Shown here: positions 10,311-30,467 of the stretch, piece by piece
Layout: the number at the start of each line of letters is the position of its first letter
How positions within the stretch are numbered: position 1 is the first letter of the stretch
NCBI GenBank assembly: GCA_041651155.1
Contig: JBAZJU010000002.1
Coordinates: 89,852 to 153,851, forward strand
DNA length: 64,000 bases
Direction: 5' to 3'
Source of the DNA: Patescibacteria group bacterium
GTDB lineage: Bacteria > Patescibacteriota > Patescibacteriia > CAIXNZ01
Program-made: the position numbers and the translations under genes
The notes under the pieces: generated by a model
Told to the model about the DNA's origin: nothing
The model's database searches: none
The model's input: the letters and a program-made list of their open reading frames with translations, nothing else

Positions 10311-10315
10311 AGTTT

Positions 10316-11947: not shown

Positions 11948-12674
11948 GATGAAAAAATTGTTAATTGTAATCCCGGCTTATAATGAGGCTAAAATAATTA
12001 AAGCAAATTTAGAAAAATTAGCAGATTATGCCCAGGCAAATTTGCAGGCTTATGATTATAAAATAGTTGTCTCTGATAATAATTCAACTGATTTAACAGG
12101 GCGGATTGTGAAAGATTTGCTGCCTTCAATAAATCATTTAGAATATTTGTTTGTGCCGCAAAAAGGCAAGGGCGTGGCAGTTTTAACTGCCTGGCAAAAA
12201 TACCAAAATGATTATGATTTTTTTGCTTTTATGGATGCTGATTTGGCCACTGATTTGAGAGCATTTTTACCGCTTGTCACTGCCCTGGAGCAGGGCTATG
12301 ACCTGGCGATTGGTTCAAGGTATTTAAAAGAATCTGAAGTCAGGCGTTCTTTATTTAGAAAAATTATGTCTTATGCTTATCGCTTATTTATAAAAATATT
12401 TTTAAATACCGAAATAAATGATTTTCCAACTGGCTTTAAAGCAGTGAGCCAGAAAGTCGTAAAACAAATAATTCCTTTGGTAAAAAACACAACTTGGTTT
12501 TTTGATAGTGAAATTATTTATCAGTCAGAAAAAAGAGGCTTGAAAATTAAAGAAATCCCGGTCAAGTGGGTTGAACCAAGAGGCAAGGGCGATAAAAGCA
12601 GGGTTAATCCTCTAAAAGTTTCCTTGCTATATTTAAAGGAAATTATTAAGTTAAGATTTTTTAAAGGCAGGTAG
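11940..12674 (+). CDS. GT2 polyprenol-phosphate glycosyltransferase (Dpm1/GtrB/ArnC-like)
   Basis: LLIVIPAYNEA and FMDADL (DxD) motifs of GT-A fold family 2; size and layout like dolichyl/undecaprenyl-phosphate sugar synthases. Confidence 0.7.
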   Translation: MIEMKKLLIVIPAYNEAKIIKANLEKLADYAQANLQAYDYKIVVSDNNSTDLTGRIVKDLLPSINHLEYLFVPQKGKGVAVLTAWQKYQNDYDFFAFMDADLATDLRAFLPLVTALEQGYDLAIGSRYLKESEVRRSLFRKIMSYAYRLFIKIFLNTEINDFPTGFKAVSQKVVKQIIPLVKNTTWFFDSEIIYQSEKRGLKIKEIPVKWVEPRGKGDKSRVNPLKVSLLYLKEIIKLRFFKGR

Positions 12675-12707
12675 TTTTTTCGGGGATTTACTGGATTTTT
12701 TGCATGG

Positions 12708-14585
12708 TTAATTTAGCTCAAACTGGCCGATAATTTCTTTTTTATCCCAGACAACCTGATTACTGTTGAGGCCGTCTAATTCCAAGCCGCCAGATAAATT
12801 TAAGATCTGGGCGGTTTTTATTTTTGGCAGATTATAAAAGTTCAGCTGGATAATCTGACCTATTTGCCATTCGCTGGTCGGGTAAAGCCCGTAGCCCAGA
12901 GGATAAAGTTCCTTATCAAGCTGGATAAAATAATTTTTATAAATTTTAGTCAGAGGTTTGAAGTACAAAGAAGTTAAATTATCACTTGTGTCAAACCCGA
13001 GGAAATTTATTTGTTCGTTTAAATTCAAATCCGCTGGTTTAGTAATCGCTGGTATTTCTTTGTCATAGATTTTATACAAGGCAATGCCTGTATCTGGCGC
13101 ATTTTTTTCCCAAAGAGCTAAATTTTGTTCAATTTTAATCAGCTGGAAATCTGGAGATAATAATTTTCTCAAGTTATCATCACCTTGATAAAAAATCCCA
13201 GGCAAATTTTTCTCATAAAGAGTTTGATAAGAAGCTAAATCAGTAAAATTAATTAAGACATATTGTAAGTCAGCCGGTGTGGGAAAATCTTTAACCAAGT
13301 ATTGTTGTTTGCCTAAAAATAAATAATTTAAAGAGTAAAGTTTTGGCCTGGAAGAAAGATTAGAAATAAGATCAAAGCTGGTTGCAGCTGAAACATTGGC
13401 AGGAATTTCTTTTAAAAATTTATTTTTTAAAGTTATCTGCTGGTAGTCTGTGGCAAAGATTGCCTGGGAAAAAGCCAAGACTGGACCAAGCACAAAAAAA
13501 AGATAAATTAAACTGATAATAACGATTAAGGCAATGACATCTTTGTATTTTTGCCAGATAAGAATGCTTTTTTGCCTGGCAGATATTTTTTTAAGAGAAA
13601 AAATGGCAGCCAAGGAAAAGACAATTAAAAATATGGCGCCATAGTGCATTTTTAAAATAGCTTCGCCTGAAGCCGGACCCAAAACTAATTGCATAAACAT
13701 GCCCAAAGAAAGTAAAAGATATTTAGGCCGGTAAAGCGGAATAAATAAAAAAACCATAAAGAATCCGAGCACAAATTCAAAATTAGTCAGAGTCAAAAGA
13801 TGGCTTAAAACTAAAGGCAACTTGACAAAGAAATTTATAAAAATTTCTTGCAGGTTTGCGCCCAGCCAATTATAATAAATCAGAAATTTATAATCTTGAG
13901 AGGAAGAAAAATAAGCAGTCGCTTTCAAAGCCAGAAAAAAATACGCAGTTGAGACAAAAAGAGGCGTTAGAATCCATTTTAGTTTTTTTCTATCTAAAAT
14001 CGCTATTATGCCAAACATAAAAATAACAAAAGCCAGATCTTCGCGCACCAAGAGGGTTAAAAGGGCTAAACCTAAAAAAGAAGAAAATTTATTCTGATCA
14101 TAAAAATAAAATGTCCAGGCAATAAAAAAAGGCGCCAAGGCCAGCATGTGGAATTCAAAAGTATTGATGTTAAGAGTTACTGGATTAAAAAGGTATAAAA
14201 TAACAATTAACAATGTTTGCCAGGGATTCAAATATTTTTTAGCAATTAGATATAAGGGGATTACTGTGAAGGCTAAAAATAATGTTTGGATAAAAAGCAG
14301 ATTTAAAGGTGATTTAAATAAAGAATAAAATGGGATTAGAAAAAAAATTAAAATTTCAAAATGATCGCCCAGATAAGAAGTCGGGTGGATTGTAAATTGA
14401 AAAAAATGGCTCTGGCTGGAATTAAAAAAAACCTGGTTAAAAATCGCCAGATCCAGACCATTGTAGCTGAAAGTAAAGTACTTAAATAAGCACAGGCCAA
14501 AAGCCAGGACAATATAAACAGCCAGCATGATTAAAAGTAGCTTATTTAATTTTTGCCAGTTGAGATTTTTAAAATAGGAAAACAT
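12708..14585 (-). CDS. GT-C-fold-like polytopic membrane protein (third, 620-650 aa)
   Basis: More than 12 TM helices then a roughly 250-aa soluble C-terminal domain. ORF track runs to 14654 through a pyrimidine-rich leader; ATG at 14585 (MFSYFKNL) is the more plausible start. Confidence 0.4.
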   Translation of the reverse strand: MFSYFKNLNWQKLNKLLLIMLAVYIVLAFGLCLFKYFTFSYNGLDLAIFNQVFFNSSQSHFFQFTIHPTSYLGDHFEILIFFLIPFYSLFKSPLNLLFIQTLFLAFTVIPLYLIAKKYLNPWQTLLIVILYLFNPVTLNINTFEFHMLALAPFFIAWTFYFYDQNKFSSFLGLALLTLLVREDLAFVIFMFGIIAILDRKKLKWILTPLFVSTAYFFLALKATAYFSSSQDYKFLIYYNWLGANLQEIFINFFVKLPLVLSHLLTLTNFEFVLGFFMVFLFIPLYRPKYLLLSLGMFMQLVLGPASGEAILKMHYGAIFLIVFSLAAIFSLKKISARQKSILIWQKYKDVIALIVIISLIYLFFVLGPVLAFSQAIFATDYQQITLKNKFLKEIPANVSAATSFDLISNLSSRPKLYSLNYLFLGKQQYLVKDFPTPADLQYVLINFTDLASYQTLYEKNLPGIFYQGDDNLRKLLSPDFQLIKIEQNLALWEKNAPDTGIALYKIYDKEIPAITKPADLNLNEQINFLGFDTSDNLTSLYFKPLTKIYKNYFIQLDKELYPLGYGLYPTSEWQIGQIIQLNFYNLPKIKTAQILNLSGGLELDGLNSNQVVWDKKEIIGQFELN

Positions 14586-14755
14586 ATAACTTAATTTTAT
14601 GCTAAATTTAGGGAAAGATAAAGAAGAGAAGGGTAAGATGGGTAAGAGGAGCAAAAAGGGTAAAAGGGGGATTATTTTAGAGTTTAGGAGCTTGTTTTTT
14701 ATCTTATTTTAGCCACAAAAGGGATCTTTTAGAGCTAAAGTTAGCGCATGTTCTA

Positions 14756-15540: not shown

Positions 15541-15999
15541 TTAAGGCTGAATAATTACGGTACCAGGCGGGTTTGTACCCGGTGGTTCTGTCCCTGGCGG
15601 ATTTTCGCCGCCAGTTGAAGATCCTGTGCCGATTGAATTAATAATTTGCGAAGTAATAAAACTGGCAATAGCATAGGCGCTCAAAATAATAACTATGCCA
15701 ATAATGGCAGTTGTTAAAATGCCTTTGGCTTTTTTAAGGACTGGTTCCTGGCCTTGGGAAGTTAAATACAAAAAGCCAGCATACAAAATCATGGCAACTG
15801 AGATTATTCCCAAAAGGCCTAGAAGCGTTTGAATAATTAGGGCTGCTAAAATTTGGGGTGATTGCGGAGTTTCTACGCCATAAACTGCTTGACCCAGGTT
15901 TTGCACTCCTCCGCTGATTATGCCGGCGGAAGCTATTTGCGCGGTCAACAAAAATCCGAAGATTATCAGCGGAATTATAGCTATTTTATTTATTTTCAT
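15541..15999 (-). CDS. TrbC/VirB2-like (T4SS pilin-like) membrane hairpin protein, paralog 1
   Basis: Signal peptide, then the conserved module hydrophobic helix-YAGFLYLTSQG-KKAKG-second helix; C-terminal PPGT repeats. Confidence 0.55.
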   Translation of the reverse strand: MKINKIAIIPLIIFGFLLTAQIASAGIISGGVQNLGQAVYGVETPQSPQILAALIIQTLLGLLGIISVAMILYAGFLYLTSQGQEPVLKKAKGILTTAIIGIVIILSAYAIASFITSQIINSIGTGSSTGGENPPGTEPPGTNPPGTVIIQP

Positions 16000-16019
16000 A
16001 TAGCAAAATTATTTATTAA

Positions 16020-16604
16020 CTAAGGGGTTTGCGGACGCAAACAATCATCAACGCTTGCCAGGCCGCAGGCTTGCCAGTGGCCAGTGCAAAAAGGAGTCTG
16101 GCGGCAGCAAATAGCATCAGCAGATTTGTAATAATCATAGCGGGCATTGCAGCAGGCAATGCTGGTGTACATATTAATATCCTGGCTATTATCGCATAAA
16201 GGATTGTAAGCTCCCTGGCTTGCTGGTTGAGCGCCGGGAGATTCTAAGGTCGTAGTTATAAAATAAGTGATTGTATAACCGGAAAAAATAATAATAATAC
16301 CGATTACTGCCGCAGTTAAAGTGTTTTTGCCTTTCTTGATTTTGTCTTCACTGCCGCCAGAGACTAAATAAAGATAGCCGCCATACATCAGGAGCGCGAC
16401 AAAAACAATGCCTAAGAGCGTAAAAAGAGCCATAATTATATTGGCCGCATAAGCTGCCAGAGAAATCTGATCGCCTGGATAAGCTAGCGAGCCTGTTTTA
16501 TTTAAGCCTTGCAAAAAATTAGACTGGGCTAAAACAGGATAAAAATATAAAAATATGCCCAAAGTTATAATTATGATAAAGAGAATAGAAAGATTTTTTT
16601 TCAT
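16020..16604 (-). CDS. TrbC/VirB2-like membrane hairpin protein with Cys-rich C-terminal ectodomain, paralog 2
   Basis: Module ...LLMYGGYLYLVSGGSEDKIKKGKNTL...; C-terminal roughly 70 aa with 9 Cys. Confidence 0.55.
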   Translation of the reverse strand: MKKNLSILFIIIITLGIFLYFYPVLAQSNFLQGLNKTGSLAYPGDQISLAAYAANIIMALFTLLGIVFVALLMYGGYLYLVSGGSEDKIKKGKNTLTAAVIGIIIIFSGYTITYFITTTLESPGAQPASQGAYNPLCDNSQDINMYTSIACCNARYDYYKSADAICCRQTPFCTGHWQACGLASVDDCLRPQTP

Positions 16605-16608
16605 AATG

Positions 16609-17040
16609 CTAGGGGTTAGATTGGGTCGTCTCGGTCGTATTTGACTGTGAACCTTCCAAGACCTGGCTAATAAAGAAAGTAATTGTATAAGCAGCAGTTA
16701 TTATAGCTAAGCCAATTACTGCATTAACTAATAATTTTTTAGCTTTTTCAATTTTGTCAGGAGCACCGCCAGCTGTCATCCATTTAAAGCCGCCATAAAT
16801 AAATAAAATCAAAAATATCATGCCCACCAGGCTCAAAAGAGCTTTGATTATATTGGCAATAATAATGCTTATTTCAGAAGTTTGCACGCCTGCTGATTGG
16901 GCGCTTGTTTCAATGCCCTGATTAGCATTTTGAAAATTTAAGGCAGCCTGCGCAACTATTGGCATCACAAAAATAAAAGCCAGCACAACAAAAATTATCA
17001 GGCTTAAGTATCTTTTTTTAATTTTGCCAAGTCGGATCAT
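16609..17040 (-). CDS. TrbC/VirB2-like membrane hairpin protein, paralog 3
   Basis: ...FIYGGFKWMTAGGAPDKIEKAKKLL... module; 4-nt gap to paralog 2. Confidence 0.55.
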   Translation of the reverse strand: MIRLGKIKKRYLSLIIFVVLAFIFVMPIVAQAALNFQNANQGIETSAQSAGVQTSEISIIIANIIKALLSLVGMIFLILFIYGGFKWMTAGGAPDKIEKAKKLLVNAVIGLAIITAAYTITFFISQVLEGSQSNTTETTQSNP

Positions 17041-17740
17041 ATTCGCAGTAATTATAAGGGATATAGTGAAAATGACAGTGGGTGCCTAGTTTTTCGCATT
17101 CTGACTGGCTGCAGATATTAGTTGCGCCTTGGCCGCATTGATCGCATTTTTCATCAGCATAAAGCGGCAGGCAGCAGATTTGGTTGCCGCAATCAGTAGT
17201 AATGCCAAGAGACTTGCCCTGTAATTGCCTGAGGCAAAAATCAAGGGCGGCACATTGGGCTCCGCCGGGCTGCTCTGTACAGGTGATTCCTATGGCGGTG
17301 CCGCTGCCTGGTTGATTAGTATTTTGGTTGAGGTTGGTAGTATTTGAATTTTGCGTTTCCTGAAAAGAAGGGCCTGACATGATAGAAGATGCGATAAAAG
17401 TGGTAAGGGCATAGGCACCGACTACAATTAATGCGCCAACAGTGGCATAGCTCAAAGTTTTTTTGGCTTTGCCGATTTTGTCTTCACTGCCAGCCGAAGT
17501 CAGCCAAACAAAACCGCCATAAATAAATAAAATAAAAAAAATAGCGCCAACCACGCCTAAAACAGCAGTGATGACGCCAGCTATAATTACAGTATAATCA
17601 GCCTGGGTCACGCCGGCTTCAGTGGCTGTTTTTTGGGAAAAGCCAGAAATATCAGTAAAGCTGTAAGCCCAGGCATTGCTAATTAAAAATAAACAGCCAA
17701 TGATTATAAAAAATAGTAAAAATATTCTTTTAAACTGCAT
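17018..17740 (-). CDS. TrbC/VirB2-like membrane hairpin protein with Cys-rich C-terminal ectodomain, paralog 4
   Basis: ...FIYGGFVWLTSAGSEDKIGKAKKTL... module; C-terminal roughly 100 aa with 14 Cys; 23-nt overlap with paralog 3. Confidence 0.55.
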   Translation of the reverse strand: MQFKRIFLLFFIIIGCLFLISNAWAYSFTDISGFSQKTATEAGVTQADYTVIIAGVITAVLGVVGAIFFILFIYGGFVWLTSAGSEDKIGKAKKTLSYATVGALIVVGAYALTTFIASSIMSGPSFQETQNSNTTNLNQNTNQPGSGTAIGITCTEQPGGAQCAALDFCLRQLQGKSLGITTDCGNQICCLPLYADEKCDQCGQGATNICSQSECEKLGTHCHFHYIPYNYCEYDPTWQN

Positions 17741-17760
17741 GGGGAAAGGTCAATCTTTTT

Positions 17761-18117
17761 TTATTTAAAAATTTGAAAAATTAAAGTGGTTATGGCATAG
17801 GCTGCGCCCAAAACAAGAGCGCCGATAATGGCCCAGGTAATTATTTTTTTGCCTTTGGCCACATTTTCGCCCCCGGCTGAAGTCATCATCATAATTCCGC
17901 CATAAACAATTAAGAATAAAAAAATAGAACCGCTTAAGGCCAAAGCAGCGCCGGCAAAACGCCCTAAAAAAGTCGGAACATCGCCTTGGGGCAGTCCGGC
18001 TACGGTGTTAGCTTCATTCAAACCATATTGGGCAAGAAGCGGGCTAAAAGGCAAAAGCAAGCCAAAAGTAAAAATGTATATATAAATTTTTTTAAACATA
18101 TAATTTTTTAGGAACAT
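17761..18117 (-). CDS. TrbC/VirB2-like membrane hairpin protein, paralog 5 (minimal, 118 aa)
   Basis: ...IVYGGIMMMTSAGGENVAKGKKII... module only. Confidence 0.5.
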   Translation of the reverse strand: MFLKNYMFKKIYIYIFTFGLLLPFSPLLAQYGLNEANTVAGLPQGDVPTFLGRFAGAALALSGSIFLFLIVYGGIMMMTSAGGENVAKGKKIITWAIIGALVLGAAYAITTLIFQIFK

Positions 18118-18142
18118 TTAAGGGGGCGAAGCGCCCCCTTAA
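18118..18142 (-). promoter_or_regulatory. GC-rich perfect hairpin abutting the start codon of paralog 5
   Basis: ttaagggggcg aa gcgcccccttaa: 10-11 bp perfect stem in an AT-rich context, located exactly where an SD would be. Confidence 0.4.
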
Positions 18143-18158
18143 ATGCCTAAATGATAAA

Positions 18159-18518
18159 TTAAGTAGTTGCGTTCAGGATAGATGTAATAACGAAATTGGC
18201 AATCGCATAAGCTGCTAAAATAATGACTAAGCCGATAAGACCGGCCACAATCAATTCTTTAGCTTTTTTAGTCTTGTCAGAATCGCCCATAGAAGTCATC
18301 CATTTAAAGCCGCCTAAAAGAATGATCAACACAGCGACTAAGCCTAAAAGACCCATTGCTACATTTATAATTTGAGCGACTGTCACGCGTACATCTCGTG
18401 TGCCTAGGCCGATATAAGGCTGGATAGTATTCAGGCCTGGCTCAATTGTAGCTGCAGATGCCATGACCGGAACTACCAATAGGCTAAAAAGCGCTAAAAT
18501 TACAGCGAATTTTTTCAT
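18159..18518 (-). CDS. TrbC/VirB2-like membrane hairpin protein, paralog 6 (minimal, 119 aa)
   Basis: ...ILLGGFKWMTSMGDSDKTKKAKELI... module. Confidence 0.55.
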   Translation of the reverse strand: MKKFAVILALFSLLVVPVMASAATIEPGLNTIQPYIGLGTRDVRVTVAQIINVAMGLLGLVAVLIILLGGFKWMTSMGDSDKTKKAKELIVAGLIGLVIILAAYAIANFVITSILNATT

Positions 18519-18674
18519 GTTTTTAAACCCTTTCTTAATGCTTATTAAATCTAAGCATTGAAGAATTAATTATTAATTATATATAAATTGTTAAATTACT
18601 ATACCTTAATTATAATATTTTTTAGGTTTTAAGGCAAATTAAATTAATTTGTTAGTCTTTTAGCTCTTATCAGG

Positions 18675-19451
18675 CTAAATTGATGAGCTGCAACAACAAA
18701 TAGGAACGCCTTCTGGCTTATCAATGCACTCTTTGATATTATCCCAAGTTTCTGACAGGTTGACAGGGTTATTGCAAACAGAAACATTTGAGACGCAAGT
18801 AGCTGTGCAATTTGGGTGGTTTGCGCAAAAATTATTGCAAACAGTTGAACAATTAGTATCTAATAAAGTTTCATTGGTTTCCGGTTTGAGGCGGGCGCAT
18901 TTGTCAGTTGCATTTGGGCAGCTAATATAGGTTTGATTTTGAATATAATATTTGGCAGAATCAGGATTTGCAACACAGCTCCATTCTGCGCCAAAAGTTT
19001 TAGCGCAAAGATCAGGCGGGGTAAAAGTCGTGGCAGGCGTAGTTCCGCCTGTTGAACTTGGGGCTTGTGGAACAATGCCGCGAGTGATGCCTGTTAAAAT
19101 AAAATTAGTTAAGATGTAGCTGCCTAAAATCACAGCAATGCCGATCACTGCCCAGACTAAAACCGTCTTGCCTTTATTGATTGCATCTGATTTTCCTGCA
19201 GAAGTAAGCATTAGAAAACCGCCGTACACAAACATTAGCAAGGCAACTGCGCCAATAATGCCTAAAAAGGCTCGGATAATGCGGCCGATCAAAGTAGCCA
19301 CGCCAGCAGCGCCGGTTAAATTTCCCACAGGACTGACATCAGTTAAACTCACAGGCGCGTTGGCTGCTAAAGCAGCATTACTAATTAATAAGGCGCAGCT
19401 AAAAAAGATCAATAATAGGAGGAGTTTGTGTTTTTTTAGAAATTTCTTCAT
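18675..19451 (-). CDS. TrbC/VirB2-like membrane hairpin protein with Cys-rich C-terminal ectodomain, paralog 7
   Basis: ...FVYGGFLMLTSAGKSDAINKGKTVL... module; C-terminal roughly 130 aa with about 20 Cys, ending CCCSSSI. Confidence 0.55.
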   Translation of the reverse strand: MKKFLKKHKLLLLLIFFSCALLISNAALAANAPVSLTDVSPVGNLTGAAGVATLIGRIIRAFLGIIGAVALLMFVYGGFLMLTSAGKSDAINKGKTVLVWAVIGIAVILGSYILTNFILTGITRGIVPQAPSSTGGTTPATTFTPPDLCAKTFGAEWSCVANPDSAKYYIQNQTYISCPNATDKCARLKPETNETLLDTNCSTVCNNFCANHPNCTATCVSNVSVCNNPVNLSETWDNIKECIDKPEGVPICCCSSSI

Positions 19452-19483
19452 GGGGCTTTTTTAAGAAGTTAGTTTAAAAAGTT

Positions 19484-21238
19484 TTAAGGCAGGCACCATA
19501 CGTCCTCTTTACCACAATGCCCTGTAGAATTTTGGGCGCTGGCTGCTTTGCCTGCTTTGCAGGTTCTATTTTCAGTGCCAGGAGCAATTCCGCAATCACA
19601 ACAGAAATTTGCTGATGTGCCAGGCGTGCAATTGCCAGCGTTATTTGGCAAATAACAACCATTGCTATCTTTTGTCAAAGTTGTAGTTGTTGTAGGCGGA
19701 GCAGGCATCCAAAAACATACTTGATTTGTTCCACAACCTATTGTCCTTGTATCATAATTATAATGTAAATTGTAGGCAGTTGCCTGGGCACAAAGGCCTA
19801 ATTCTGACTGTGATGGCGCTGTAGTATTTGCGGCTGGAGTACACCAAGAATTATCTACTGGATTAACATTTAAACATACACCACCTTGTCCAACACAATC
19901 TCCAGGTCGGTTAACTAGCCAGATGTCGGTACTTGTTCCAGACGGAGTTGAGGGGGCAGTTGTTGTCGTTGTTGTGGCAGAAGTTCCAGTCGTAGATGTA
20001 TTTGTACCGGTACCAATGGCAGTTAAAATAAAACTGACCAAAGCATAACTGCCCAGAATCACACCAATGCCAATGATTGACCAGGTTAATATATCTTTGC
20101 CTTTTTTTACGCCTTCGCCGCCTTTGGAAGTTAAAAGGATTATACCGCCATAAATAACCATTAATAAGGCAATTGCGCCGATAATGCTTAGGATGGTTTG
20201 AATAATTCGGCCAATAAAAACTGCAGCTTTAATATCACCAACACCTTTGATTGGATTAATGTCTATAGTAAGTCCGCCAGTCCCTGAGGGAGCCTGGGGA
20301 ATACGAGGAGTGGTTGTGGAACCAGCGGGTTTTGTTGCCGCCTGTGGATTAACACAACATTTTTGGATAGAAGAAGATGCCGTAGAATAACAATCAATAA
20401 AATCAGAGCCAAGACTGGATTCTCCGGTTGCGCAGTCGCTTTTACATTGGCCAGTGGGTTTGCAAGTGGCAGAAGTTGTAATGCAGCATTTTGGAAGACT
20501 ATCAGTGCAACCGATATCTCCTCCGGAAGAATTGGAAGTATATGCTGTTTCTTGGCTAGTACATGTTTTAGAACAATGAGCGCCGGCAAAATCAGTACAT
20601 TGGCTAGAACCTGGCAATGACGTCCCCGTGCCACTACTGCCAATGGGTTTTACGCAGGCTTTTAATTGGTTAACTTGGGAATCAACAACATAACAATCTC
20701 GTAAATAATCATAACTTTGGCTTGCGGTTGTGAATTGGCTATTCTCAAGATTATATATTGGAATACAGGTGCCTGCACTTAAAGCAAGGTTGCATTCTTC
20801 AGGGGTGCAAGCTCCTCCAGTTGAGACAACACAATCTGGCGGGGTTGGCTGATCAGCTGGGGGATAAATAGGCGTGCAATAGATTGTATAACCTGCGGGA
20901 CTGGTGCAAATATAGGATTTAACTATTAAATCTGTCCAGCCCTGACAAACTCCTCCGTCTGTACTGCATGATTTTACGCAACAGCCTGCATTTTGCAATT
21001 TACAAGCAGTACCTGCAACTACCGTGGGCATATCTTTTGGGCAGGGTACGGTAGAAAGACCAGTGTTTTGATCTTCAAGATAATTTACGCAAATTCCTCC
21101 CAGATCGCCTGAACATGAAACGCTGGAATCTTTTATTGTACCTTCAGGCGTGGCAGTGAAAGCCTTTGCTTCTTTAGCCAATATTAAACCAGAACAGAAA
21201 ATGGCTGTAAAAATTGCAACATAGATAATTTTTTTCAT
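19484..21238 (-). CDS. Large (584 aa) Cys-rich surface protein with an embedded TrbC/VirB2-like hairpin module, paralog 8
   Basis: Signal peptide, roughly 330-aa Cys-rich N-terminal domain, module ...VIYGGIILLTSKGGEGVKKGKDIL..., Thr-rich linker (TSATTTTTTAPSTPS), second Cys-containing C-terminal domain. Confidence 0.5.
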   Translation of the reverse strand: MKKIIYVAIFTAIFCSGLILAKEAKAFTATPEGTIKDSSVSCSGDLGGICVNYLEDQNTGLSTVPCPKDMPTVVAGTACKLQNAGCCVKSCSTDGGVCQGWTDLIVKSYICTSPAGYTIYCTPIYPPADQPTPPDCVVSTGGACTPEECNLALSAGTCIPIYNLENSQFTTASQSYDYLRDCYVVDSQVNQLKACVKPIGSSGTGTSLPGSSQCTDFAGAHCSKTCTSQETAYTSNSSGGDIGCTDSLPKCCITTSATCKPTGQCKSDCATGESSLGSDFIDCYSTASSSIQKCCVNPQAATKPAGSTTTPRIPQAPSGTGGLTIDINPIKGVGDIKAAVFIGRIIQTILSIIGAIALLMVIYGGIILLTSKGGEGVKKGKDILTWSIIGIGVILGSYALVSFILTAIGTGTNTSTTGTSATTTTTTAPSTPSGTSTDIWLVNRPGDCVGQGGVCLNVNPVDNSWCTPAANTTAPSQSELGLCAQATAYNLHYNYDTRTIGCGTNQVCFWMPAPPTTTTTLTKDSNGCYLPNNAGNCTPGTSANFCCDCGIAPGTENRTCKAGKAASAQNSTGHCGKEDVWCLP

Positions 21239-21351
21239 AAAGGTATAAATGCTAATTTACAAATGTAATGCGAATCTATGAATAAGCAAATTATTAAACT
21301 GATAAATTGTTGAATGGCTAAATGGTTGATTGATAACAAGTGTTATTCTTT

Positions 21352-22281
21352 TTATTGGCAAACACCGTTTGAATTGCAAGTGCCTTTACAGATCTCATAA
21401 GCGTTTCCAATAGCATGCGGCAAGGCACGCGCCGCACACTTAGCTCCTGGATCTAGCTTCGTTTGGCAATTACCAAAGTAAGTTTTTTGGGCAGCGACAG
21501 CGTCAGTTGTATCAGTTATACAGACTAAGCCAGTTTGGCATTCATTAAGATCAGTACAAAACTGACCTTCTGGCTGGCTGCCAGCCGGCGCCACGCAGAA
21601 CATAACATTTGGGTCATAATTGCAGTAACCATTCAGGCATTGTTCATTTTTTGTGCAAGGATAACCGCCAATTGGCCGTTTTTTAACACATTCAGCTCCT
21701 GTGCAAAAACAATCATTTGTACATTCAGCTATGGTTTTACAAGTCGTTCCAGTTCCTGCCTTGTTAGTACATGGTACTGATGGTGCTACTGGGGGGACTG
21801 CAGGAGTTTCTGCTGGCGTGGTGCCACCTTGAGTTTGGCCTCCGCCTGAACCCTGGCCTGCTGGCGGAGCAGTCCAGCCAGTTGGCTCTGGCAAGGGAGC
21901 GCATTTTAAATTGCCAGCCCAGTTCCAGCCGCCTGTGACTGCGCTGATAATAAAATTAACGCCAAAATAGGCCAGAAAAACAATCATCAGCCCGACAACT
22001 GAATTAACTAAAATATCCTTGCCTTTTTTAATTTCATCTGACCGGCCGGCGGAAATCAGCATTCTAAAGCCGCCATAAAAAAAATAAAGCAGGACTAAGG
22101 CGCCTACTATGCCAAAAAGAAAATAGCCGAAATTAATAGCGGTCTGAATTATATCGCAGAGCGAACAACGGCCGGTTGAGGCGCAATCAGGTAAAATCGG
22201 GCTAGCTTGAGCTAGGACTAGATGGGGCAACAAGATTAAAGCTAAAAAAAGAAAACTGCTGAAAAAGATTGTTTTTTTCAT
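21352..22281 (-). CDS. TrbC/VirB2-like membrane hairpin protein with Cys-rich C-terminal ectodomain, paralog 9
   Basis: ...FFYGGFRMLISAGRSDEIKKGKDIL... module near the N-terminus; roughly 190-aa C-terminal Gly/Thr/Cys-rich domain. Confidence 0.55.
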   Translation of the reverse strand: MKKTIFFSSFLFLALILLPHLVLAQASPILPDCASTGRCSLCDIIQTAINFGYFLFGIVGALVLLYFFYGGFRMLISAGRSDEIKKGKDILVNSVVGLMIVFLAYFGVNFIISAVTGGWNWAGNLKCAPLPEPTGWTAPPAGQGSGGGQTQGGTTPAETPAVPPVAPSVPCTNKAGTGTTCKTIAECTNDCFCTGAECVKKRPIGGYPCTKNEQCLNGYCNYDPNVMFCVAPAGSQPEGQFCTDLNECQTGLVCITDTTDAVAAQKTYFGNCQTKLDPGAKCAARALPHAIGNAYEICKGTCNSNGVCQ

Positions 22282-22453: not shown

Positions 22454-22800
22454 TTAATTCTTTTTCTTAATCGGGCTCATGCTGGCAAAAATTCTGGCTA
22501 ATTGCAGAGCTTCATCAGCCAAAAGCTCTATTTCATTCCTAAAAGTCTGATTTGAGTGCGAAACTAATTCTAACCAATATTTACTTTCCTTAGCCTCTCT
22601 TCTGCAAATGCCAATTTTATGAATAAAATCTTTTTTTGTGATAGTGTCATTTGCTTCTCGATAATTTGCACCGACTGAACAAGCAGCTCTAATCAACTGT
22701 TTAATCAGCTCGTTATTAATTATATTTTTTCAACTTTTTTGCATAGATCAATGCAATTTTTAGCAAATTTTAAAGTCCTTTCCTCTAGATCGTACTTCAT
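22454..22800 (-). pseudogene. Four-helix-bundle protein (PF05635/TIGR02436, Avd-like, 23S rRNA IVS protein family) interrupted by a frameshift
   Basis: ATG at 22800 encodes MKYDLEERTLKFAKNCIDLCKKVEKI then TAA (22720). The remaining 80 aa of the family (IRAACSVGANYREAND...EAKESKYWLEL) continue in another frame from the T6/A6 run at 22725-22730. Fused length of about 117 aa is typical of the family. Confidence 0.55.
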
Positions 22801-22895: not shown

Positions 22896-24272
22896 TTAAA
22901 GGGTCTGATTTACTCGTTGCGCGCCGAGATTAATAATTTCAACTGATTTTTGCAAGCCAGCCAGATTGTCGTTGATCATTGTTTTAAAAATATCTTCCAT
23001 CGCATTTTCATCCCTGCCTTTGTACCAGCTTTTTGCAGTAAGAAGTTGATTAACAAAAGCTGATAATTCCTGGTCATCAGTCTGGCTGGAGATTAAACTG
23101 CGCAAGGCTGCTGGCTGGCGGGATTTTTCCAGGAATTTTTTGTTGCTATCAGCATTGGTAGTTATAAAATTGATAAAGCTCCAAGCTTCATTCGGATGCA
23201 GGCTTTTTTTGGCTACAGTTTCAACCCAGTAATTGGCAAAATTTATAGATGGTTCACTGATTTGCGGCATTGTTGACGTTTCAAAATTTAGCTTAGGCGC
23301 CTGCGCTTTGATTAGCGGTATCTGATAGGCATAGCCAAAGAAAAAAGCGGTTTTACCTGCCATAAATGCGGCCAAAGAATTAGGGAGCGTGTCATTCCAG
23401 GTATAGATTTGGTTTGTAGGCGAGGCAAAACTCGTGTAAAAATCCAAAGCTTCAGCTGCTGGCGGTGTTTCACGAGTATAATTGGGCGGTGAGCCGGCAA
23501 AGGTTGCCACGCCCTGGTCATTGGTCATTATTGCGCCAGCCTGCATCATTAGCAGGCTCAAAATGTCTGTAGAACGCTCAACATTGTTAGCTGTACCAAG
23601 CGCGGCGCCTGATTGGATAATATTGCCTCGGCTATCCAATTTTGTAAGTTTTATCACTTGATCGCGAAATTCATCCCAAGTTTTGGGCGGGCTGGCAATA
23701 TTAGCATTATTTAAAAGGTCGCGATTAAAAAATAAAGCCAAGGTATCAATGCTCAAAGGCAGGCCATAGATTTGGTTATTAATGACCTGATTATTATAAA
23801 CTACATCAGGAAAAAGATTATTAATATCACGCAAAGTTAAGGTTTTTTGCGGGCGCATTTCAGTAAAAGTTTCTTTTTGGAAAGTGCCTTTTTGGTAAGT
23901 ATAGGGCATGGTGATTTCAGCCGGCATAGGCAAATTTAAACTCTGATATTTTTTCATCCAGGTCGTGTGGATAGAAAAAATATCAGGGCCGCGGTCTTCA
24001 GCAAAAGCTTTAAGCAGCTCATTCTCATATTCTTCTGGCGTGAAATTTTTAAAGTTTATTGTCACATAAGGATATTGCTTTTGATAATTAGAAATTAAGT
24101 CAGAGATATTGAAGCTTTCCTCATAGACTTTCCAATATTCTAAGGTCACAGGCTTTGGGCTGCCGGCAATTGTGTTAGCAGGCAAGCTTTGGCATTTGGC
24201 GCCAGTGGTTATTAAAACTATGAGGATAACCATAACGATAACTAGTTTTTTGTTTTGGAGAAATTTGAGCAT
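22896..24272 (-). CDS. Extracellular solute-binding protein (ABC transporter SBP family 1-like, sugar-type), apparently orphan
   Basis: Signal peptide plus Cys (possible lipoprotein), 458 aa, family-1 SBP-like composition; no permease or ATPase genes adjacent. Confidence 0.5.
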   Translation of the reverse strand: MLKFLQNKKLVIVMVILIVLITTGAKCQSLPANTIAGSPKPVTLEYWKVYEESFNISDLISNYQKQYPYVTINFKNFTPEEYENELLKAFAEDRGPDIFSIHTTWMKKYQSLNLPMPAEITMPYTYQKGTFQKETFTEMRPQKTLTLRDINNLFPDVVYNNQVINNQIYGLPLSIDTLALFFNRDLLNNANIASPPKTWDEFRDQVIKLTKLDSRGNIIQSGAALGTANNVERSTDILSLLMMQAGAIMTNDQGVATFAGSPPNYTRETPPAAEALDFYTSFASPTNQIYTWNDTLPNSLAAFMAGKTAFFFGYAYQIPLIKAQAPKLNFETSTMPQISEPSINFANYWVETVAKKSLHPNEAWSFINFITTNADSNKKFLEKSRQPAALRSLISSQTDDQELSAFVNQLLTAKSWYKGRDENAMEDIFKTMINDNLAGLQKSVEIINLGAQRVNQTL

Positions 24273-24441
24273 AATATTTAAATTATGAATTATGAGATAT
24301 GAATTATGAAATGAGTAATGTTTTGGGTTAGTTTAATGAAGCCATTTTAGGTTAAGGTTATAGCAAAGTGATTTAAGTGTAAGACTTAAAATTTTACCTT
24401 CTGACAAAACTGGCCATCTAACTATAACCTTGTGAATGGAC

Positions 24442-25311
24442 CTAAATTTTTAGAGTCCTTAAATATTTTATAAAATTTTTATTTAAATCTGCGCGCTCTA
24501 GAGCAAAATCAACATTGGCCTGCAGCCAGCCGAGCTTAGAGCCAGTGTCATAATAAGTTCCCTCAACAAGTGAAGCATAGATCGGACGTATTTTTGAAAG
24601 ATTAAAAATAGCATCAACCAGCCAAAGCTCATTGCCCTGGCCAATTTTAGTTTTTTCCAAAATTTCAAAAATATCCGGAGTTAAAATATAGGCGCCAAGA
24701 GTGCCAATTCGGCTGGGCGCTTTGTCTGGACCTGGCTTTTCAATAATTTTTTTGAGCTGGTAAATATTTTTTTCAATTTCTACCCCGTCAATTACTCCAT
24801 ATTTTTTTGTGCCCTCATCGTCAATTTTTATAGCAGTTAAAACAGGATCGTGATATTTTTGAAAAACTTCAATCAGCTGTTTTAACCTGGGCTTTTTTTT
24901 ATTTATAAAAAGATCATCGCCAAAGATTACGGCAAATGGTTCATTGCCGATTATTTTCTTAGAATTTAAAATCGGCGTGCCATTGCCATAAGGGCCTTTT
25001 TGCCTGATATAAATAAAATTTGCCAGATCAGCAATCCTTTTAATTTCTTCCCGCTGTTCTTCTTTGCCCTGTTTTTTTAACCAATTCTGCAATTCATAAT
25101 TATAATCAAAGTGGTCTTCAATCGCTCGTTTAGAAGCGCCCGTGACTAAAATGATGTCTTCTATGCCGGAAGCAACCGCTTCTTCCACTATGTATTGGAT
25201 AACAGGCTTATCAATAATCGGCAGCATTTCCTTGGGCATGGCTTTGGTGGCTGGCAAAAAGCGCGTGCCAAAACCAGCGACCGGGATAATGGCTTTCTTG
25301 ATTTTGTCCAT
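24442..25311 (-). CDS. galU: UTP--glucose-1-phosphate uridylyltransferase
   Basis: KAIIPVAGFGTRFLPATKAMPKEMLPIIDKPVIQYIVEEA is diagnostic of GalU. Confidence 0.85.
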   Translation of the reverse strand: MDKIKKAIIPVAGFGTRFLPATKAMPKEMLPIIDKPVIQYIVEEAVASGIEDIILVTGASKRAIEDHFDYNYELQNWLKKQGKEEQREEIKRIADLANFIYIRQKGPYGNGTPILNSKKIIGNEPFAVIFGDDLFINKKKPRLKQLIEVFQKYHDPVLTAIKIDDEGTKKYGVIDGVEIEKNIYQLKKIIEKPGPDKAPSRIGTLGAYILTPDIFEILEKTKIGQGNELWLVDAIFNLSKIRPIYASLVEGTYYDTGSKLGWLQANVDFALERADLNKNFIKYLRTLKI

Positions 25312-29944: not shown

Positions 29945-30467
29945 ATGTATAAGGGTAAGATGAGGAAAAAGAGTAAGAAGGGTCATCCTACGCTCCTGCC
30001 TTCGTTGAAACTTCGGCAGGCAGGAAAACTTCGGATGACAAGTAAAAGGGGGTAAGATGGGATTTCCTTTAGGTAATCATAACAAAAAGAACGATTTTAA
30101 TAAATGTTCGGAAATTAATTAGGTACTAAATAAACTGATAAATTGAACTCATATTTTTAGATACAGACTTAAATCCTTATATAAAATTAGCCTAAAATTA
30201 GTGAACAAAATTTTTATACAAAAGAGGGTTTTTCATTGAATGGGCTTGACATAAATGGTATAATTATAATATAAAAATGCGAATAATATTTTAATGCAAA
30301 TGCCACCTACCTTCGCTCCTTTGGAGCTACGGCAGGCAGGCGAATATTTAAAATCCGAATACAACTCTGCCCCAATTTATAACGTAAAGTCCTCAGTCTT
30401 TCGAAATTCGCAGATTCGCATTATTCGTAGATTAGCATTCAAAAAAAACAAAAATAAAAAAATACCT

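What the first reader, a model, noticed from the sequence alone, without database searches (positions are those of the whole stretch)
19484..21238. Paralog 8: 584-aa chimeric architecture with Cys-rich domains on both sides of the pilin-like hairpin and a poly-Thr linker
The other array members place any ectodomain C-terminal to the hairpin. This protein has signal peptide, a roughly 330-aa domain with about 40 Cys (CxxC, CC pairs), the hairpin module, a TSATTTTTTAPSTPS linker (probably O-glycosylated; glycosylation genes are nearby), and a second Cys-containing domain. It could act as an adhesin-like tip or a major surface antigen. Many spurious antisense ORFs overlap it (20263..20643 on both strands), reflecting its unusual Ser/Thr/Gly/Cys codon composition.
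Basis: seen in the sequence. Interest (0 to 1): 0.55.

Follow-up and report, generated by a model that had tools for sequence, protein, structure and literature searches.

The report
Double-sided cysteine-rich VirB2-like pilin
This is a real 584-residue gene from a Patescibacteria (ultra-small bacterium) genome encoding a type-IV-secretion-family "pilin" membrane hairpin with fast-evolving, probably disulfide-bonded surface domains on both ends; it is an unusual but not unique elaboration of an already described pilin gene array, probably used to contact other cells.

Summary
The ORF (19484..21238, minus strand, 584 aa) is real. It is 100% identical in three assemblies, and three diverged orthologs (34-41% identity) share its architecture. 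The layout is: signal peptide, 304-aa N-ectodomain (28 Cys), two-helix hairpin matching Pfam T4SS_pilin (PF18895), Thr-rich linker, 144-aa C-ectodomain (14 Cys).

It is gene 2 of a nine-gene VirB2-like pilin array that keeps 1:1 gene order in a relative. Such arrays are already published for Patescibacteria. Both ectodomains should face outward. Cys counts are even in every segment and every ortholog, and ectodomains diverge much faster than the hairpin (31-38% against 72-75%).

The intact N-domain is restricted to this small ortholog group (1.84 billion representatives searched). However, Cys-rich domains N-terminal to the hairpin, and double-sided members, occur in four other sampled arrays, and in one relative the same 6-Cys module sits on opposite sides of adjacent pilins.

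Best reading: a modular, surface-exposed minor subunit or adhesin. Fold, glycosylation and pilus incorporation remain untested.

By-product: these arrays are consistently linked to an orphan solute-binding-protein gene and usually galU, not to VirB4.

The parts
19484..21238 (-). p8 gene, 584 aa + stop: VirB2-like (PF18895) pilin-family protein with ectodomains on both sides of the hairpin. Second gene of the nine-gene array.
   Evidence: ORF. Identical CDS in L003/L004. In NCBI as 'MAG: pilin [Patescibacteria group bacterium]'. Orthologs P0002-P0004.
21161..21238 (-). Signal peptide, aa 1-26: MKK, hydrophobic core, AKA|F cleavage-type site. No canonical lipobox and no type IV prepilin motif.
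   Evidence: Sequence and hydropathy. The N-terminus MKKI[FI]Y.. is conserved in orthologs. No N_methyl Pfam hit. The cleavage site is inferred, not predicted by a dedicated tool.
20249..21160 (-). N-terminal ectodomain, aa 27-330, 28 Cys. Sub-segments split by Pro/Thr/Ser/Gly linkers: N1 27-135 (10 Cys), N2 136-212 (6), N3 213-256 (6), N4 257-330 (6). N3 and N4 share the pattern C-x(5-7)-C-x3-C-x(13-17)-C-x(6-10)-CC.
   Evidence: 24 of the 28 Cys are invariant in 4 orthologs. The profile search finds this domain only in p8 orthologs. N3 vs N4 hhalign gives P=6.5e-4, probability 28%: weak.
20009..20248 (-). Pilin hairpin, aa 331-410: two TM helices joined by the basic loop KGGEGVKKGKD. No Cys.
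   Evidence: PF18895 match at aa 341-403, E=1.6e-5, 25.3 bits. 52% identity to p7. AF2 with a 99-sequence alignment gives two helices at pLDDT 78.8. 72-75% identical in orthologs.
19919..20008 (-). Thr/Ser/Gly/Pro-rich linker, aa 411-440 (14 Thr of 30), including TSATTTTTTAPSTPS. Candidate O-glycosylation site (inferred).
   Evidence: Mixed Thr codons and no tandem DNA repeat.
19487..19918 (-). C-terminal ectodomain, aa 441-584, 14 Cys. C1 is 441-523 (6 Cys) and C2 is 524-584 (8 Cys; motifs CCDCG.APGT..CK and HCGK....C), separated by PAPPTTTTT.
   Evidence: All 14 Cys are invariant in 4 orthologs.
15541..22281 (-). Nine-gene tandem array of PF18895 pilin-family genes. In transcription order: p9 309 aa, p8 584, p7 258, p6 119, p5 118, p4 240, p3 143, p2 194, p1 152.
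   Evidence: Pfam hits. Hairpin HMM. 1:1 positional orthology with L001.
22896..24272 (-). Orphan SBP_bac_1 solute-binding protein directly upstream of the array. It is orthologous to the SBP next to or inside the pilin arrays of six other loci whose DNA was read.
   Evidence: Pfam. 39-43% identity, E<=1e-102, to the SBPs of L005, L007, L010, L012, and 74% to L015. Gene maps.
24442..25311 (-). galU (UTP-glucose-1-phosphate uridylyltransferase), upstream of the SBP on the same strand. Possible first gene of the transcription unit.
   Evidence: TIGR01099 336.9 bits, above the 326.8 cut-off. Conserved next to the SBP/array in L007, L010, L012, L015. Promoter-like site at 25362-25335 and a strong terminator just upstream at 25445-25408, from a consensus scan only.
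8676..14654 (.). Downstream envelope-glycosylation-type genes: two unannotated multi-TM proteins (8676-10310 and 10316-11947, +), a GT2 (11940-12674, +) and DUF2079 (12708-14654, -).
   Evidence: DUF2079 follows the array in L001 too (59% identity). The 544-aa TM protein has an ortholog downstream of the L007 array (28% identity, E=3e-64). The link to p8 is circumstantial.

Best explanation
p8 is a genuine member of a conserved nine-gene array of VirB2-like (PF18895) pilin-family proteins in a Patescibacteria chromosome.

Proposed steps. Sec targeting by a cleavable signal peptide exports the 304-aa N-domain. The two hydrophobic helices insert as a hairpin with the basic loop in the cytoplasm, and the C-terminal part is exported as well. 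Both Cys-rich parts therefore lie outside the cell. There they fold as strings of small, independently disulfide-closed modules separated by Thr/Pro/Ser/Gly linkers that may carry O-glycans.

Because both termini of VirB2-type pilins point away from the filament axis, p8 would display about 450 aa of rapidly evolving surface on the cell or on a heteromeric pilus-like fibre. The conserved bare pilins p5 and p6 are the likeliest bulk subunits of such a fibre. The most likely role of p8 is as a low-copy adhesive or host-contact subunit, which would supply the adhesin function that surveys have not found in Patescibacteria T4SSs. The architecture arose by accretion and shuffling of small Cys modules onto a p7-like hairpin.

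Shown: gene reality, domain order, hairpin homology, array orthology, Cys conservation and parity, rate difference between hairpin and ectodomains, module shuffling in a relative. Inferred: topology, disulfides, glycosylation, pilus incorporation, adhesion.
For: Gene reality. The CDS is identical in three assemblies. Orthologs P0002-P0004 have the same domain order.

Hairpin. PF18895 hit. 30-52% identity to all eight paralogs, E 5e-9 to 1.7e-24. Weak NCBIfam hit to the Mbov_0395 pilin-like conjugal transfer protein family. Confident two-helix model.

Topology. Signal peptide, four Lys in the 13-aa loop, none just outside the helices.

Disulfide-bonded modules. Cys counts are 28/30/30/30 (N), 14/16/16/16 (C) and 0 in the hairpin. 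38 of 52 Cys columns are invariant, and lineage-specific Cys differ by even numbers. All six inter-linker segments have even counts, P~0.016 under random placement. CPR genomes are enriched in MdbA-like oxidoreductase and VKOR (bioRxiv 10.1101/335083).

Exposed, fast-evolving surface. Hairpin 72-75% identical against ectodomains 31-38%, or 25-31% excluding Cys. Bare pilins p5/p6 are 71-77% identical while ectodomain-bearing members are 38-47%. In L015 the flanking genes are 73-86% identical, yet only the hairpin of the position-2 pilin aligns.

Module shuffling. In L015 the same 6-Cys module lies N-terminal to the hairpin in one pilin and C-terminal, in tandem, in its neighbour (E=2e-14 and 8e-10).

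Literature context. VirB2 arrays of 2-11 genes occur in 383 Patescibacteria assemblies, and no PrgB-like adhesins were detected (PMC12102498). The pilin array is essential in S. epibionticum (PMC10633639; PMC12857230).

Outward-facing termini in conjugative pili rest on my own knowledge of the F-pilus and T-pilus structures. I did not check this here.
Against: No T4SS machinery (VirB4, VirB6, VirB8, VirD4) is encoded among the ORFs of at least 100 aa that I scanned in the 64-kb window, nor within 10 kb of the six other arrays whose gene maps I saw. A link to a secretion machine is therefore unproven.

No pilus made of PF18895 proteins has ever been visualised, as far as the papers read here say.

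Ectodomains totalling about 450 aa would be hard to pack on every subunit of a VirB2-type helical filament, so p8 could only be a minor or terminal subunit.

The ectodomain fold is unknown: AF2 pLDDT is 38, and there is no Pfam or PDB match. Nothing identifies a ligand.

Fold searches with the hairpin model return only generic helical hairpins and no T4SS pilin.

The Pfam score is slightly below the gathering cut-off.
Confidence: 0.55

Rival explanations
1. Membrane-anchored surface protein, not a filament subunit. The PF18895 hairpin serves only as a two-helix anchor. The array, together with the co-transcribed solute-binding protein, forms a cell-surface layer or capture complex (for example for host glycans or nutrients) that is independent of any type IV secretion machine. 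p8 is its largest ectodomain carrier.
For: An orthologous orphan SBP sits beside or inside the array in all seven loci whose DNA was read, and an SBP_bac_1 gene also abuts the array on a 964-kb contig. It overlaps a pilin gene by 4 bp in L010 and lies inside the array in L012. No VirB4/VirB6/VirD4 was seen in the window or in those flanks. Large ectodomains on five of nine members are awkward for a tightly packed pilus. The neighbours are envelope and glycosylation genes.
Against: Hairpin sequences belong to a family that overlaps TrbC/VirB2 (several relatives carry both PF18895 and PF04956), and to a mycoplasma ICE pilin-like family. In 1135 assemblies such genes lie near virB4, and in S. epibionticum the essential array is inside the T4SS cluster. 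The strict conservation of the bare ~119-aa members (71-77%) suggests protein-protein packing constraints typical of polymer subunits. The rest of this genome was not visible.
Confidence: 0.3
2. Variable surface antigen or decoy. The array exists mainly for diversification (host-range switching, or evasion of phage or predators), like the tandem VirB2/VirB5 copies of the Bartonella Trw system or Anaplasma VirB2 paralogs. p8's ectodomains are simply hypervariable cargo without a fixed ligand.
For: Ectodomains diverge much faster than hairpins and neighbours. Both ectodomains are replaced in L015. Modules shuffle between adjacent genes. P0001 and its 34%-identical ortholog P0002 co-occur in one sample, ERZ27247363. 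The published survey proposes adaptation to different host strains (PMC12102498).
Against: Strict 1:1 positional orthology of all nine genes between the window and L001 argues against cassette-type turnover. 38 of 52 Cys columns and many Gly/Pro/Asp/Asn positions are invariant, so the fold is under purifying selection. There are no repeats, inverted segments or slippage-prone tracts in the gene. This reading overlaps with the adhesin reading rather than excluding it.
Confidence: 0.1
3. Artefact: two genes (a secreted Cys-rich protein and an ordinary pilin) joined by a frameshift or assembly error.
For: The only support is the unusual length, and the fact that the first 330 aa have no homologs outside the ortholog group.
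Against: The 1755-nt CDS, and more than 12 kb around it, are 100% identical in three assemblies from different pipelines. These may derive from the same or related samples. Three diverged orthologs and the positional ortholog P0005 also have Cys modules between signal peptide and hairpin. There is no Met between residues 70 and 360, and no second signal peptide before the hairpin. N-terminal domains occur in 11 further genes of four other arrays.
Confidence: 0.02
4. The Cys-rich segments bind metal (zinc-knuckle or metallothionein-like) rather than forming disulfides.
For: The C2 motif CCDC...C...HC...C resembles metal-binding spacing. No structure is available to contradict this.
Against: An extracytoplasmic location is predicted on both sides of the hairpin. 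Cys numbers are even in every segment and ortholog, with differences in even numbers. His is nearly absent from the ectodomains (sequence). CPR genomes encode extracellular disulfide-forming enzymes.
Confidence: 0.03

Closest known systems
VirB2-like pilin arrays of Patescibacteria (Quinonero-Coronel et al. 2025, PMC12102498; essential array in Ca. Southlakia epibionticum, Wang et al. 2023, PMC10633639)
   Same: Tandem array of PF18895/VirB2-like two-helix pilin genes: nine here, 2-11 published. Low identity between members: 30-52% across the hairpin here, against a published mean of 25% and maximum of 54%. Patescibacteria chromosome. Signal peptide plus hairpin.
   Different: Those papers treat the genes as small pilins. 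They do not describe members with large ectodomains, Cys-rich modules, domains on both termini, or linkage to an SBP gene (none of the words 'solute', 'disulfide' or 'signal peptide' occurs in the survey's text, and 'cysteine' occurs only in connection with VirB1). This array is not next to virB4 within the 64-kb window.
Canonical T4SS pilins VirB2 / TrbC / TraA (Pfam PF04956)
   Same: Cleavable signal peptide, two hydrophobic helices joined by a short basic loop, both termini on the outer side of the membrane.
   Different: The canonical mature proteins are about 70-120 aa with only short termini (my knowledge). p8 carries about 304 aa before and about 174 aa after the hairpin. PF04956 does not hit p8. 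The host is a monoderm. No cognate machinery is visible nearby.
Mbov_0395-family pilin-like conjugal transfer proteins of mycoplasma ICEs (NCBIfam NF045849) and the pLS20_p028 family (NF045890)
   Same: The only NCBIfam models that touch the p8 hairpin (aa 341-407 and 342-431). Monoderm conjugation context.
   Different: Scores are far below the cut-offs (19.4 vs 40 bits; 12.8 vs 150 bits). No ICE or plasmid context here. These models do not cover the ectodomains.
Modular type IV pilins with grafted functional domains (for example the Streptococcus sanguinis bimodular pilins; recalled from memory, not checked here)
   Same: Works alike in principle: a polymerisation module carrying an extra globular domain that gives the filament an adhesive function.
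   Different: An unrelated pilin fold and assembly system: type IV pili have a single N-terminal helix, a class III signal peptide and a prepilin peptidase. p8 has no N_methyl motif and carries domains on both ends.
Tandemly amplified VirB2/VirB5 variants of Bartonella Trw and Anaplasma T4SSs (as cited in PMC12102498)
   Same: Multiple divergent pilin paralogs in tandem, interpreted as a way to diversify surface interactions.
   Different: Those are diderm systems in which variation lies within small pilins and separate VirB5 adhesins. Here the variable parts are large domains fused to the pilin itself, and the nine positions are stable orthologous lineages.
Large cysteine-rich extracellular proteins of CPR (Peregrinibacteria) proposed to act in attachment (PMC4736985)
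   Same: Secreted, very Cys-rich, strain-variable, with a proposed attachment role, in the same superphylum.
   Different: Those average 1,655 aa and are not described as fused to pilin hairpins. No sequence relationship was tested.

Membership tests
Pfam PF18895 T4SS_pilin (VirB2-like pilins of Patescibacteria and monoderms) | Sequence homology of the two-helix region to family members | tested here: met
   hmmscan E=1.6e-5 at aa 341-403, covering profile positions 8-70 of 71. BLASTP to paralog p7 (itself above the cut-off) gives 52% identity, E=1.7e-24. PF18895.6 is precomputed for P0001. Caveat: 25.3 bits is below Pfam's gathering score of 26.6.
Pfam PF18895 T4SS_pilin (VirB2-like pilins of Patescibacteria and monoderms) | Signal peptide followed by two TM helices joined by a short positively charged loop | tested here: met
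   Hydropathy and sequence. AF2 helices at residues 9-45 and 50-87 of the 90-aa segment, pLDDT 78.8.
Pfam PF18895 T4SS_pilin (VirB2-like pilins of Patescibacteria and monoderms) | Small protein (about 110-140 aa) with only short extramembrane termini | tested here: not met
   p8 is 584 aa, with 304 aa before the hairpin and 174 aa after it. The 120 best family hits are 90-142 aa. This is the respect in which p8 is a variant. The same departure occurs in other arrays.
T4SS pilin in the functional sense (VirB2: subunit of a pilus built by a VirB4-containing machine) | Encoded with, or dependent on, T4SS machinery (VirB4, VirB6, VirB3/8) | tested here: not met
   No such Pfam family in any scanned ORF of at least 100 aa in the 64-kb window, or in the 10-kb flanks of six other arrays. 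The rest of the genome (the contig is 190 kb, plus other contigs) could not be examined, so absence from the genome is not shown.
T4SS pilin in the functional sense (VirB2: subunit of a pilus built by a VirB4-containing machine) | Fold superimposable on solved VirB2/TraA pilins | tested here: inconclusive
T4SS pilin in the functional sense (VirB2: subunit of a pilus built by a VirB4-containing machine) | Polymerises into an extracellular filament | not testable with these tools
   Needs microscopy or biochemistry. According to the reviews read, pilus formation by Patescibacteria T4SSs is still only a possibility.
Patescibacteria VirB2 arrays (PMC12102498) | 2-11 tandem VirB2-like genes, highly divergent from each other, in a Patescibacteria genome | tested here: met
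   Nine consecutive same-strand genes with the hairpin. 30-52% identity across the hairpin. NCBI names the source 'Patescibacteria group bacterium'.
Type IV pilus (T4P) pilins | Class III signal peptide / N-methylation motif and a single N-terminal hydrophobic helix | tested here: not met
   No PF07963 N_methyl hit. A classical signal peptide and two internal TM helices are seen instead. p8 is not a type IV pilin.
Shared '6-Cys module' family across arrays (hypothetical) | Statistically supported homology between p8 modules N3/N4 and Cys modules of other arrays | tested here: inconclusive
   An HMM of p8's double module scores the L005, P0005 and P0006 modules no better than shuffled decoys. 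hhalign gives P=6.5e-4 to 5.5e-3 and probability 7-28%. Only the Cys spacing is shared. Real module homology is shown only within L015.

The most novel reading that the evidence does not exclude
The galU - orphan SBP - PF18895 array cassette is a distinct, widely conserved Patescibacteria surface apparatus that does not need a neighbouring VirB4 machine. In this reading, a heteromeric, glycosylated fibre or membrane complex is built from conserved bare hairpin subunits. It is decorated by 'modular VirB2 pilins' whose disulfide-knot modules are shuffled between genes and between the two termini. p8, the largest double-sided member, acts as the host-recognition element and works together with the co-transcribed solute-binding protein in capturing host-derived material.
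Probability: 0.2. Interest if true: 0.75.

Novelty: new variant of a known kind. Interest (0 to 1): 0.45.

Why it matters
Patescibacteria depend on contact with host cells. In the one species tested genetically, the VirB2-like pilin array is essential, yet nobody knows what these proteins build, and no adhesin has been found for the system. Pilin-family proteins with large, fast-evolving, probably disulfide-bonded domains fused to both outward-facing termini are obvious candidates for that missing contact function. They also give concrete, expressible targets (modules N3-N4 and C2) for binding and localisation experiments.

The consistent linkage to an orphan solute-binding protein and galU, rather than to VirB4, raises the question of whether all 'T4SS pilin' arrays really belong to type IV secretion. 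On the other side, the protein is already annotated as a pilin, arrays of this kind are published, and similar architectures are common in public data. This is therefore a refinement of a known system, not a new one.

Tried and rejected
1. Full-length AF2 with the 4-ortholog alignment gave mean pLDDT 38, with only the hairpin above 60. No fold inference is possible for the ectodomains, and no fold search was attempted on that model.

3. p8 was searched against PDB sequences: no hit at E<=10. Pfam gives no ectodomain hit at E<=1. NCBIfam touches only the hairpin, weakly.

4. A self-BLAST for internal repeats found nothing. An HMM of the double module against other arrays plus shuffled decoys showed no signal. 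hhalign of modules was weak. The visually striking 'C-x3-C ... CC' module family is therefore not statistically established, except inside L015.

5. The N-domain profile against 1.84 billion representatives found only the ortholog group. The C-domain profile search found nothing, but it did not recover the query proteins either, so that negative is weak.

6. A genome-contig scan found one distant locus, L005. A metagenome-contig scan found only the already known P0004 contig. The hairpin alignment A7 was too diverse for the search for related loci.

7. dN/dS between the close pair P0002/P0003 could not be computed because no DNA is available for P0003. Protein-level rates were used instead.

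8. Phase variation by repeat slippage in the poly-Thr tracts is rejected: there is no tandem DNA repeat and the codons are mixed.

9. A type IV pilus identity is rejected (no N_methyl motif, two TM helices). A lipoprotein is rejected (no canonical lipobox; sequence).

10. The promoter/terminator scan gives only consensus matches. The operon structure is suggested, not shown.

Caveat on sampling: the comparison arrays were reached through high-scoring bare pilins on long contigs and through p8 relatives (seven loci with DNA). The stated frequencies are indicative, not a census.
Full report

The ORF 19484..21238 (minus strand, ATG start) encodes 584 aa. Its first 26 residues look like a signal peptide: MKK, a hydrophobic core, then AKA|F. 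The only other strongly hydrophobic stretches are aa ~338-372 and 383-410, separated by the basic loop KGGEGVKKGKD. That hairpin matches Pfam PF18895 (T4SS_pilin) over aa 341-403 at E=1.6e-5. The score of 25.3 bits is marginally below the gathering score of 26.6. The hairpin is also 30-52% identical to all eight neighbouring paralogs, with the best match to p7 at E=1.7e-24.

There are 43 Cys: 1 in the signal peptide, 28 in the N-domain (aa 27-330), none in the hairpin and 14 in the C-domain (aa 441-584). 'CxxC' is wrong, because the only instance is CCDC in the C-domain; the recurrent motifs are CxxxC and CC. The linker TSATTTTTTAPSTPS is at aa 421-435. Cys makes up 7.4% of residues, against 0.37% in 22 other ORFs of the window.

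The ORF named 20263..20643 is on the same strand in another frame. The only antisense ORF of at least 60 aa is 20363..20620.

**2. One gene or two?**

The CDS, and more than 12 kb around it, are 100% identical in an ENA assembly (L003) and a Logan assembly (L004), as well as in the NCBI MAG. These come from different pipelines but possibly from the same or related samples, so they exclude an assembler artefact and not a read-level error.

The stronger evidence comes from three diverged orthologs: P0002 (607 aa), P0003 (608 aa) and P0004 (620 aa). They are 34-41% identical to p8 overall and share the order signal peptide / Cys-rich N-domain / hairpin / linker / Cys-rich C-domain. p8 has no Met between residues 70 and 360 and no second signal peptide. 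GC by codon position (0.44/0.57/0.29) fits one reading frame. The fusion-artefact idea is effectively refuted.

**3. Context**

p8 is gene 2 of nine consecutive same-strand PF18895 genes (22281 down to 15541). The same nine genes occur in the same order in contig L001. Sizes there are 380/620/353/120/120/297/140/188/153 aa, against 309/584/258/119/118/240/143/194/152 here. Every window gene has its best match at the same array position. These are therefore nine old, distinct lineages and not recent copies.

The two bare pilins p5 and p6 are the most conserved (71-77%). The five members with Cys-rich ectodomains are the least conserved (38-47%), which is less than the neighbouring DUF2079 gene at 59%.

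No T4SS machinery family was found in any scanned ORF of at least 100 aa in the window, which otherwise holds housekeeping and envelope genes such as GyrA, RuvABC, NusB, RNase III, PBP1, an amidase and SpoIID.

**4. What is already known**

VirB2-like pilins detected with PF18895 and PF04956 are reported in 1,948 Patescibacteria assemblies. Arrays of 2-11 genes occur in 383 assemblies, with mean identity 25% and maximum 54%. No PrgB-like adhesins were detected (PMC12102498). In Ca. Southlakia epibionticum the pilin series lies inside the T4SS cluster and is essential (PMC10633639; PMC12857230). The role of that T4SS is described as completely unknown (PMC11665869).

None of these texts mentions pilins with large ectodomains, cysteines in pilins, disulfides or a solute-binding protein. 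Searches combining Patescibacteria, pilin and cysteine-rich returned nothing. Large Cys-rich extracellular proteins proposed to act in attachment are known in Peregrinibacteria, but they are not described as pilin fusions (PMC4736985). CPR genomes are enriched in MdbA-like oxidoreductase and VKOR (10.1101/335083). NCBI already names this protein 'pilin'.

**5. Anatomy and inferred topology**

A signal peptide, followed by a hairpin with four Lys in its loop and none just outside the helices, predicts an N-out / loop-in / C-out arrangement. Both Cys-rich parts would then be extracytoplasmic. This is an inference and the positive-inside rule.

The Cys statistics fit disulfide-closed extracellular modules:
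- Counts per side are even in all four orthologs: N 28/30/30/30, C 14/16/16/16, hairpin 0.
- 38 of 52 Cys columns are invariant.
- Lineage-specific Cys differ by even numbers.
- Low-complexity Pro/Thr/Ser/Gly linkers cut p8 into segments holding 10, 6, 6, 6 | 6, 8 Cys. All are even, with P~0.016 under random placement.
- N3, N4 and C2 keep their Cys number in every ortholog.

Excluding Cys, ectodomain identity to the orthologs is only 25-31%, against 72-75% for the hairpin. Even between the close pair P0002/P0003, the hairpin is 95% identical and the ectodomains 76-78%.

**6. How unusual is the architecture?**

The intact N-domain is very restricted. A profile of the four N-domains, searched against 1.84 billion cluster representatives, found only the three representatives of the ortholog group. 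Scans of genome and metagenome contigs added only one distant locus.

The architecture as such is not unique. I located the hairpin with an HMM in six arrays. Cys-containing domains of 125-830 aa precede the hairpin in:
- L005: proteins of 968, 298 and 280 aa
- L007: 274, 251 and 205 aa
- L010: 262 aa
- L012: 417, 317, 295 and 348 aa

Double-sided members include L005-968 (60 + 6 Cys), L007-274 (9 + 6 Cys) and P0005.

P0005 is the positional ortholog of p8 in L015. That contig has the same extended synteny, and its flanking genes are 73-86% identical to the window's. Yet P0005 is only 370 aa, and only its hairpin aligns with p8, at 65%. Both ectodomains have therefore been replaced, or have diverged beyond recognition, over a short evolutionary distance.

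**7. Are modules mobile?**

By eye, a module C-x(5-14)-C-x3-C-x(13-25)-C-x(4-10)-CC recurs in p8 (N3 and N4), L005, P0005 and P0006. An HMM of p8's double module does not separate those instances from shuffled decoys, and profile-profile comparisons are weak, with P=6.5e-4 to 5.5e-3 and probability 7-28%. I do not claim homology there.

Shuffling is demonstrated in L015. Residues 30-68 of the position-3 pilin lie N-terminal to its hairpin. They match two tandem copies that lie C-terminal to the hairpin of the adjacent P0005, at E=2e-14 and 8e-10. Small Cys modules do move between neighbouring scaffolds and between the two sides. This offers a route by which p8's double-sided layout could have arisen on a p7-like hairpin, p7 being its closest paralog.

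**8. Structure attempts**

**9. Glycosylation claim**

The neighbours include:
- galU, above the NCBIfam cut-off
- a GT2 whose best, sub-threshold matches are polyprenyl/dolichyl-phosphate hexose transferases and protein-glycosylation enzymes such as PgfS and AglJ
- DUF2079, which also follows the array in L001
- two unannotated proteins of ~544 aa, with 8 and 10 hydrophobic segments; one has an ortholog downstream of the L007 array

A route from UDP-glucose to polyprenyl-P-hexose to extracytoplasmic transfer onto the Thr-rich linkers is plausible. It is purely circumstantial.

**10. By-product: the SBP linkage**

In every array examined, an orthologous orphan SBP_bac_1 gene lies immediately upstream of the array or inside it. 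It is 39-43% identical to the window's SBP at E<=1e-102 in L005, L007, L010 and L012, and 74% identical in L015. In five of the six other gene maps that hold the SBP (L007, L010, L012, L015 and, as an unnamed NTP_transferase, the window's own duplicate), galU precedes it. In L010 the SBP gene overlaps the first pilin gene by 4 bp. In L012 it sits between pilins 2 and 3. None of those flanks shows VirB4. I did not find this linkage in the papers read. It keeps open the reading that this class of arrays is not part of a type IV secretion machine.

**11. Verdict**

The 'single chimeric gene' reading is right. The 'unique' and 'mobile N-domain' readings are not.

The best-supported mechanism is surface display of two disulfide-rich, linker-tethered, rapidly evolving ectodomains on a VirB2-family hairpin, acting as a minor adhesive subunit of whatever the array builds (confidence ~0.55). 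The main rival is a non-filament membrane-anchored surface complex linked to the SBP (~0.3).

This is a new variant of a known kind and is of moderate interest.

Noticed in passing
window 22896-25311 (-), and loci L005 5265-6710, L007 4503-6774, L010 4013-6468, L012 2907-3782 + 5890-7386, L015 6006-8270: Conserved cassette: galU, then an orphan SBP_bac_1 solute-binding protein (no permease or ATPase nearby), then the PF18895 pilin array, all on one strand. It is seen in every array examined. The SBP orthologs are 39-74% identical, and the SBP is sometimes translationally coupled to a pilin gene or embedded in the array. No VirB4 appears in any flank. The linkage is not mentioned in the Patescibacteria T4SS papers read.
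   Followed up: partly
L015 10513-11205 vs P0005 (L015 9332-10444): The same 6-Cys module (..C.GTCRS.SLEG.TCNA.EK.T.DTC.....T.CC.KS) lies N-terminal to the hairpin in one pilin and, as two tandem copies, C-terminal to the hairpin in the adjacent pilin (E=2e-14 and 8e-10). This is direct evidence of module shuffling between array members.
   Followed up: yes
window 15541-22281 vs L001 909-8716: All nine array positions are 1:1 orthologous between two genomes. The two bare ~119-aa pilins (p5, p6) are 71-77% identical, while every ectodomain-bearing member is only 38-47% identical. This suggests a conserved core subunit plus variable decorated subunits.
   Followed up: yes
window 21352-22281 (p9); L005 6757-9663; L007 6802-7626; L012 7399-8286: Pilins at or near the SBP-proximal end of each array (first in the window, L005 and L007; third, just after the SBP, in L012) share a short C-x(5-6)-C motif immediately before the first TM helix, for example p9 LPDCASTGRCSLCDII, L005 LPACITTGINCTLNDIV and L007 LPECIDDGDCGLDDIV. 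In p9 the Cys split is odd on each side (3 before, 19 after the hairpin). This hints at a disulfide bridging the N- and C-terminal extracellular parts.
   Followed up: no
window 22454-22696 (-) and 41807-42154 (-); L001 381-758: Small genes of the '23S rRNA-intervening sequence protein' family (PF05635). One lies between the SBP gene and the array, in the window's duplicate L003 and in L001 but not in L015. It appears as a TTG-start 80-aa ORF in the window, and its family assignment comes from the precomputed hit on L003. A second copy lies 20 kb away. Their function here is unknown.
   Followed up: no
window 30294-32648 (+): The 784-aa SpoIID-domain protein contains two nearly identical ~140-aa internal repeats (AIKMIQSQNDFEMTKSEK.DFSVGFKNNGSSVWQKTGSGKVELRRVDSSGL...) with weak Ig-like (N_BRCA1_IG) matches. 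The neighbouring 779-aa amidase carries the same Ig-like domain type.
   Followed up: no
window 42205-44847 (-): An 880-aa secreted-looking protein with three lamin-tail domains, a PKD domain and a DUF5689/OB-fold C-terminus. It is a candidate extracellular nucleic-acid-binding or nuclease-associated surface protein.
   Followed up: no
window 8676-11947 (+): Two adjacent proteins of ~544 aa, with 8 and 10 hydrophobic segments, have no Pfam or NCBIfam hit even at permissive thresholds. They sit next to a polyprenyl-phosphate-hexose-type GT2 and DUF2079. One has a 28%-identical ortholog (E=3e-64) downstream of the pilin array in L007. They may be unrecognised GT-C-type glycosyltransferases.
   Followed up: partly
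window 16000-22000: The array region has higher GC (0.40-0.43) than its flanks (~0.33-0.37). This is explained by Cys/Gly/Ala/Thr/Ser/Pro-rich coding and need not indicate foreign origin, since the array is syntenic in relatives.
   Followed up: partly
window 63559-63610 (-): A weak partial tRNA match (31.4 bits, model positions 9-63) lies at the 3' edge region of a GTG-start ORF. Two normal tRNAs are at 38466-38538 and 39133-39218.
   Followed up: no
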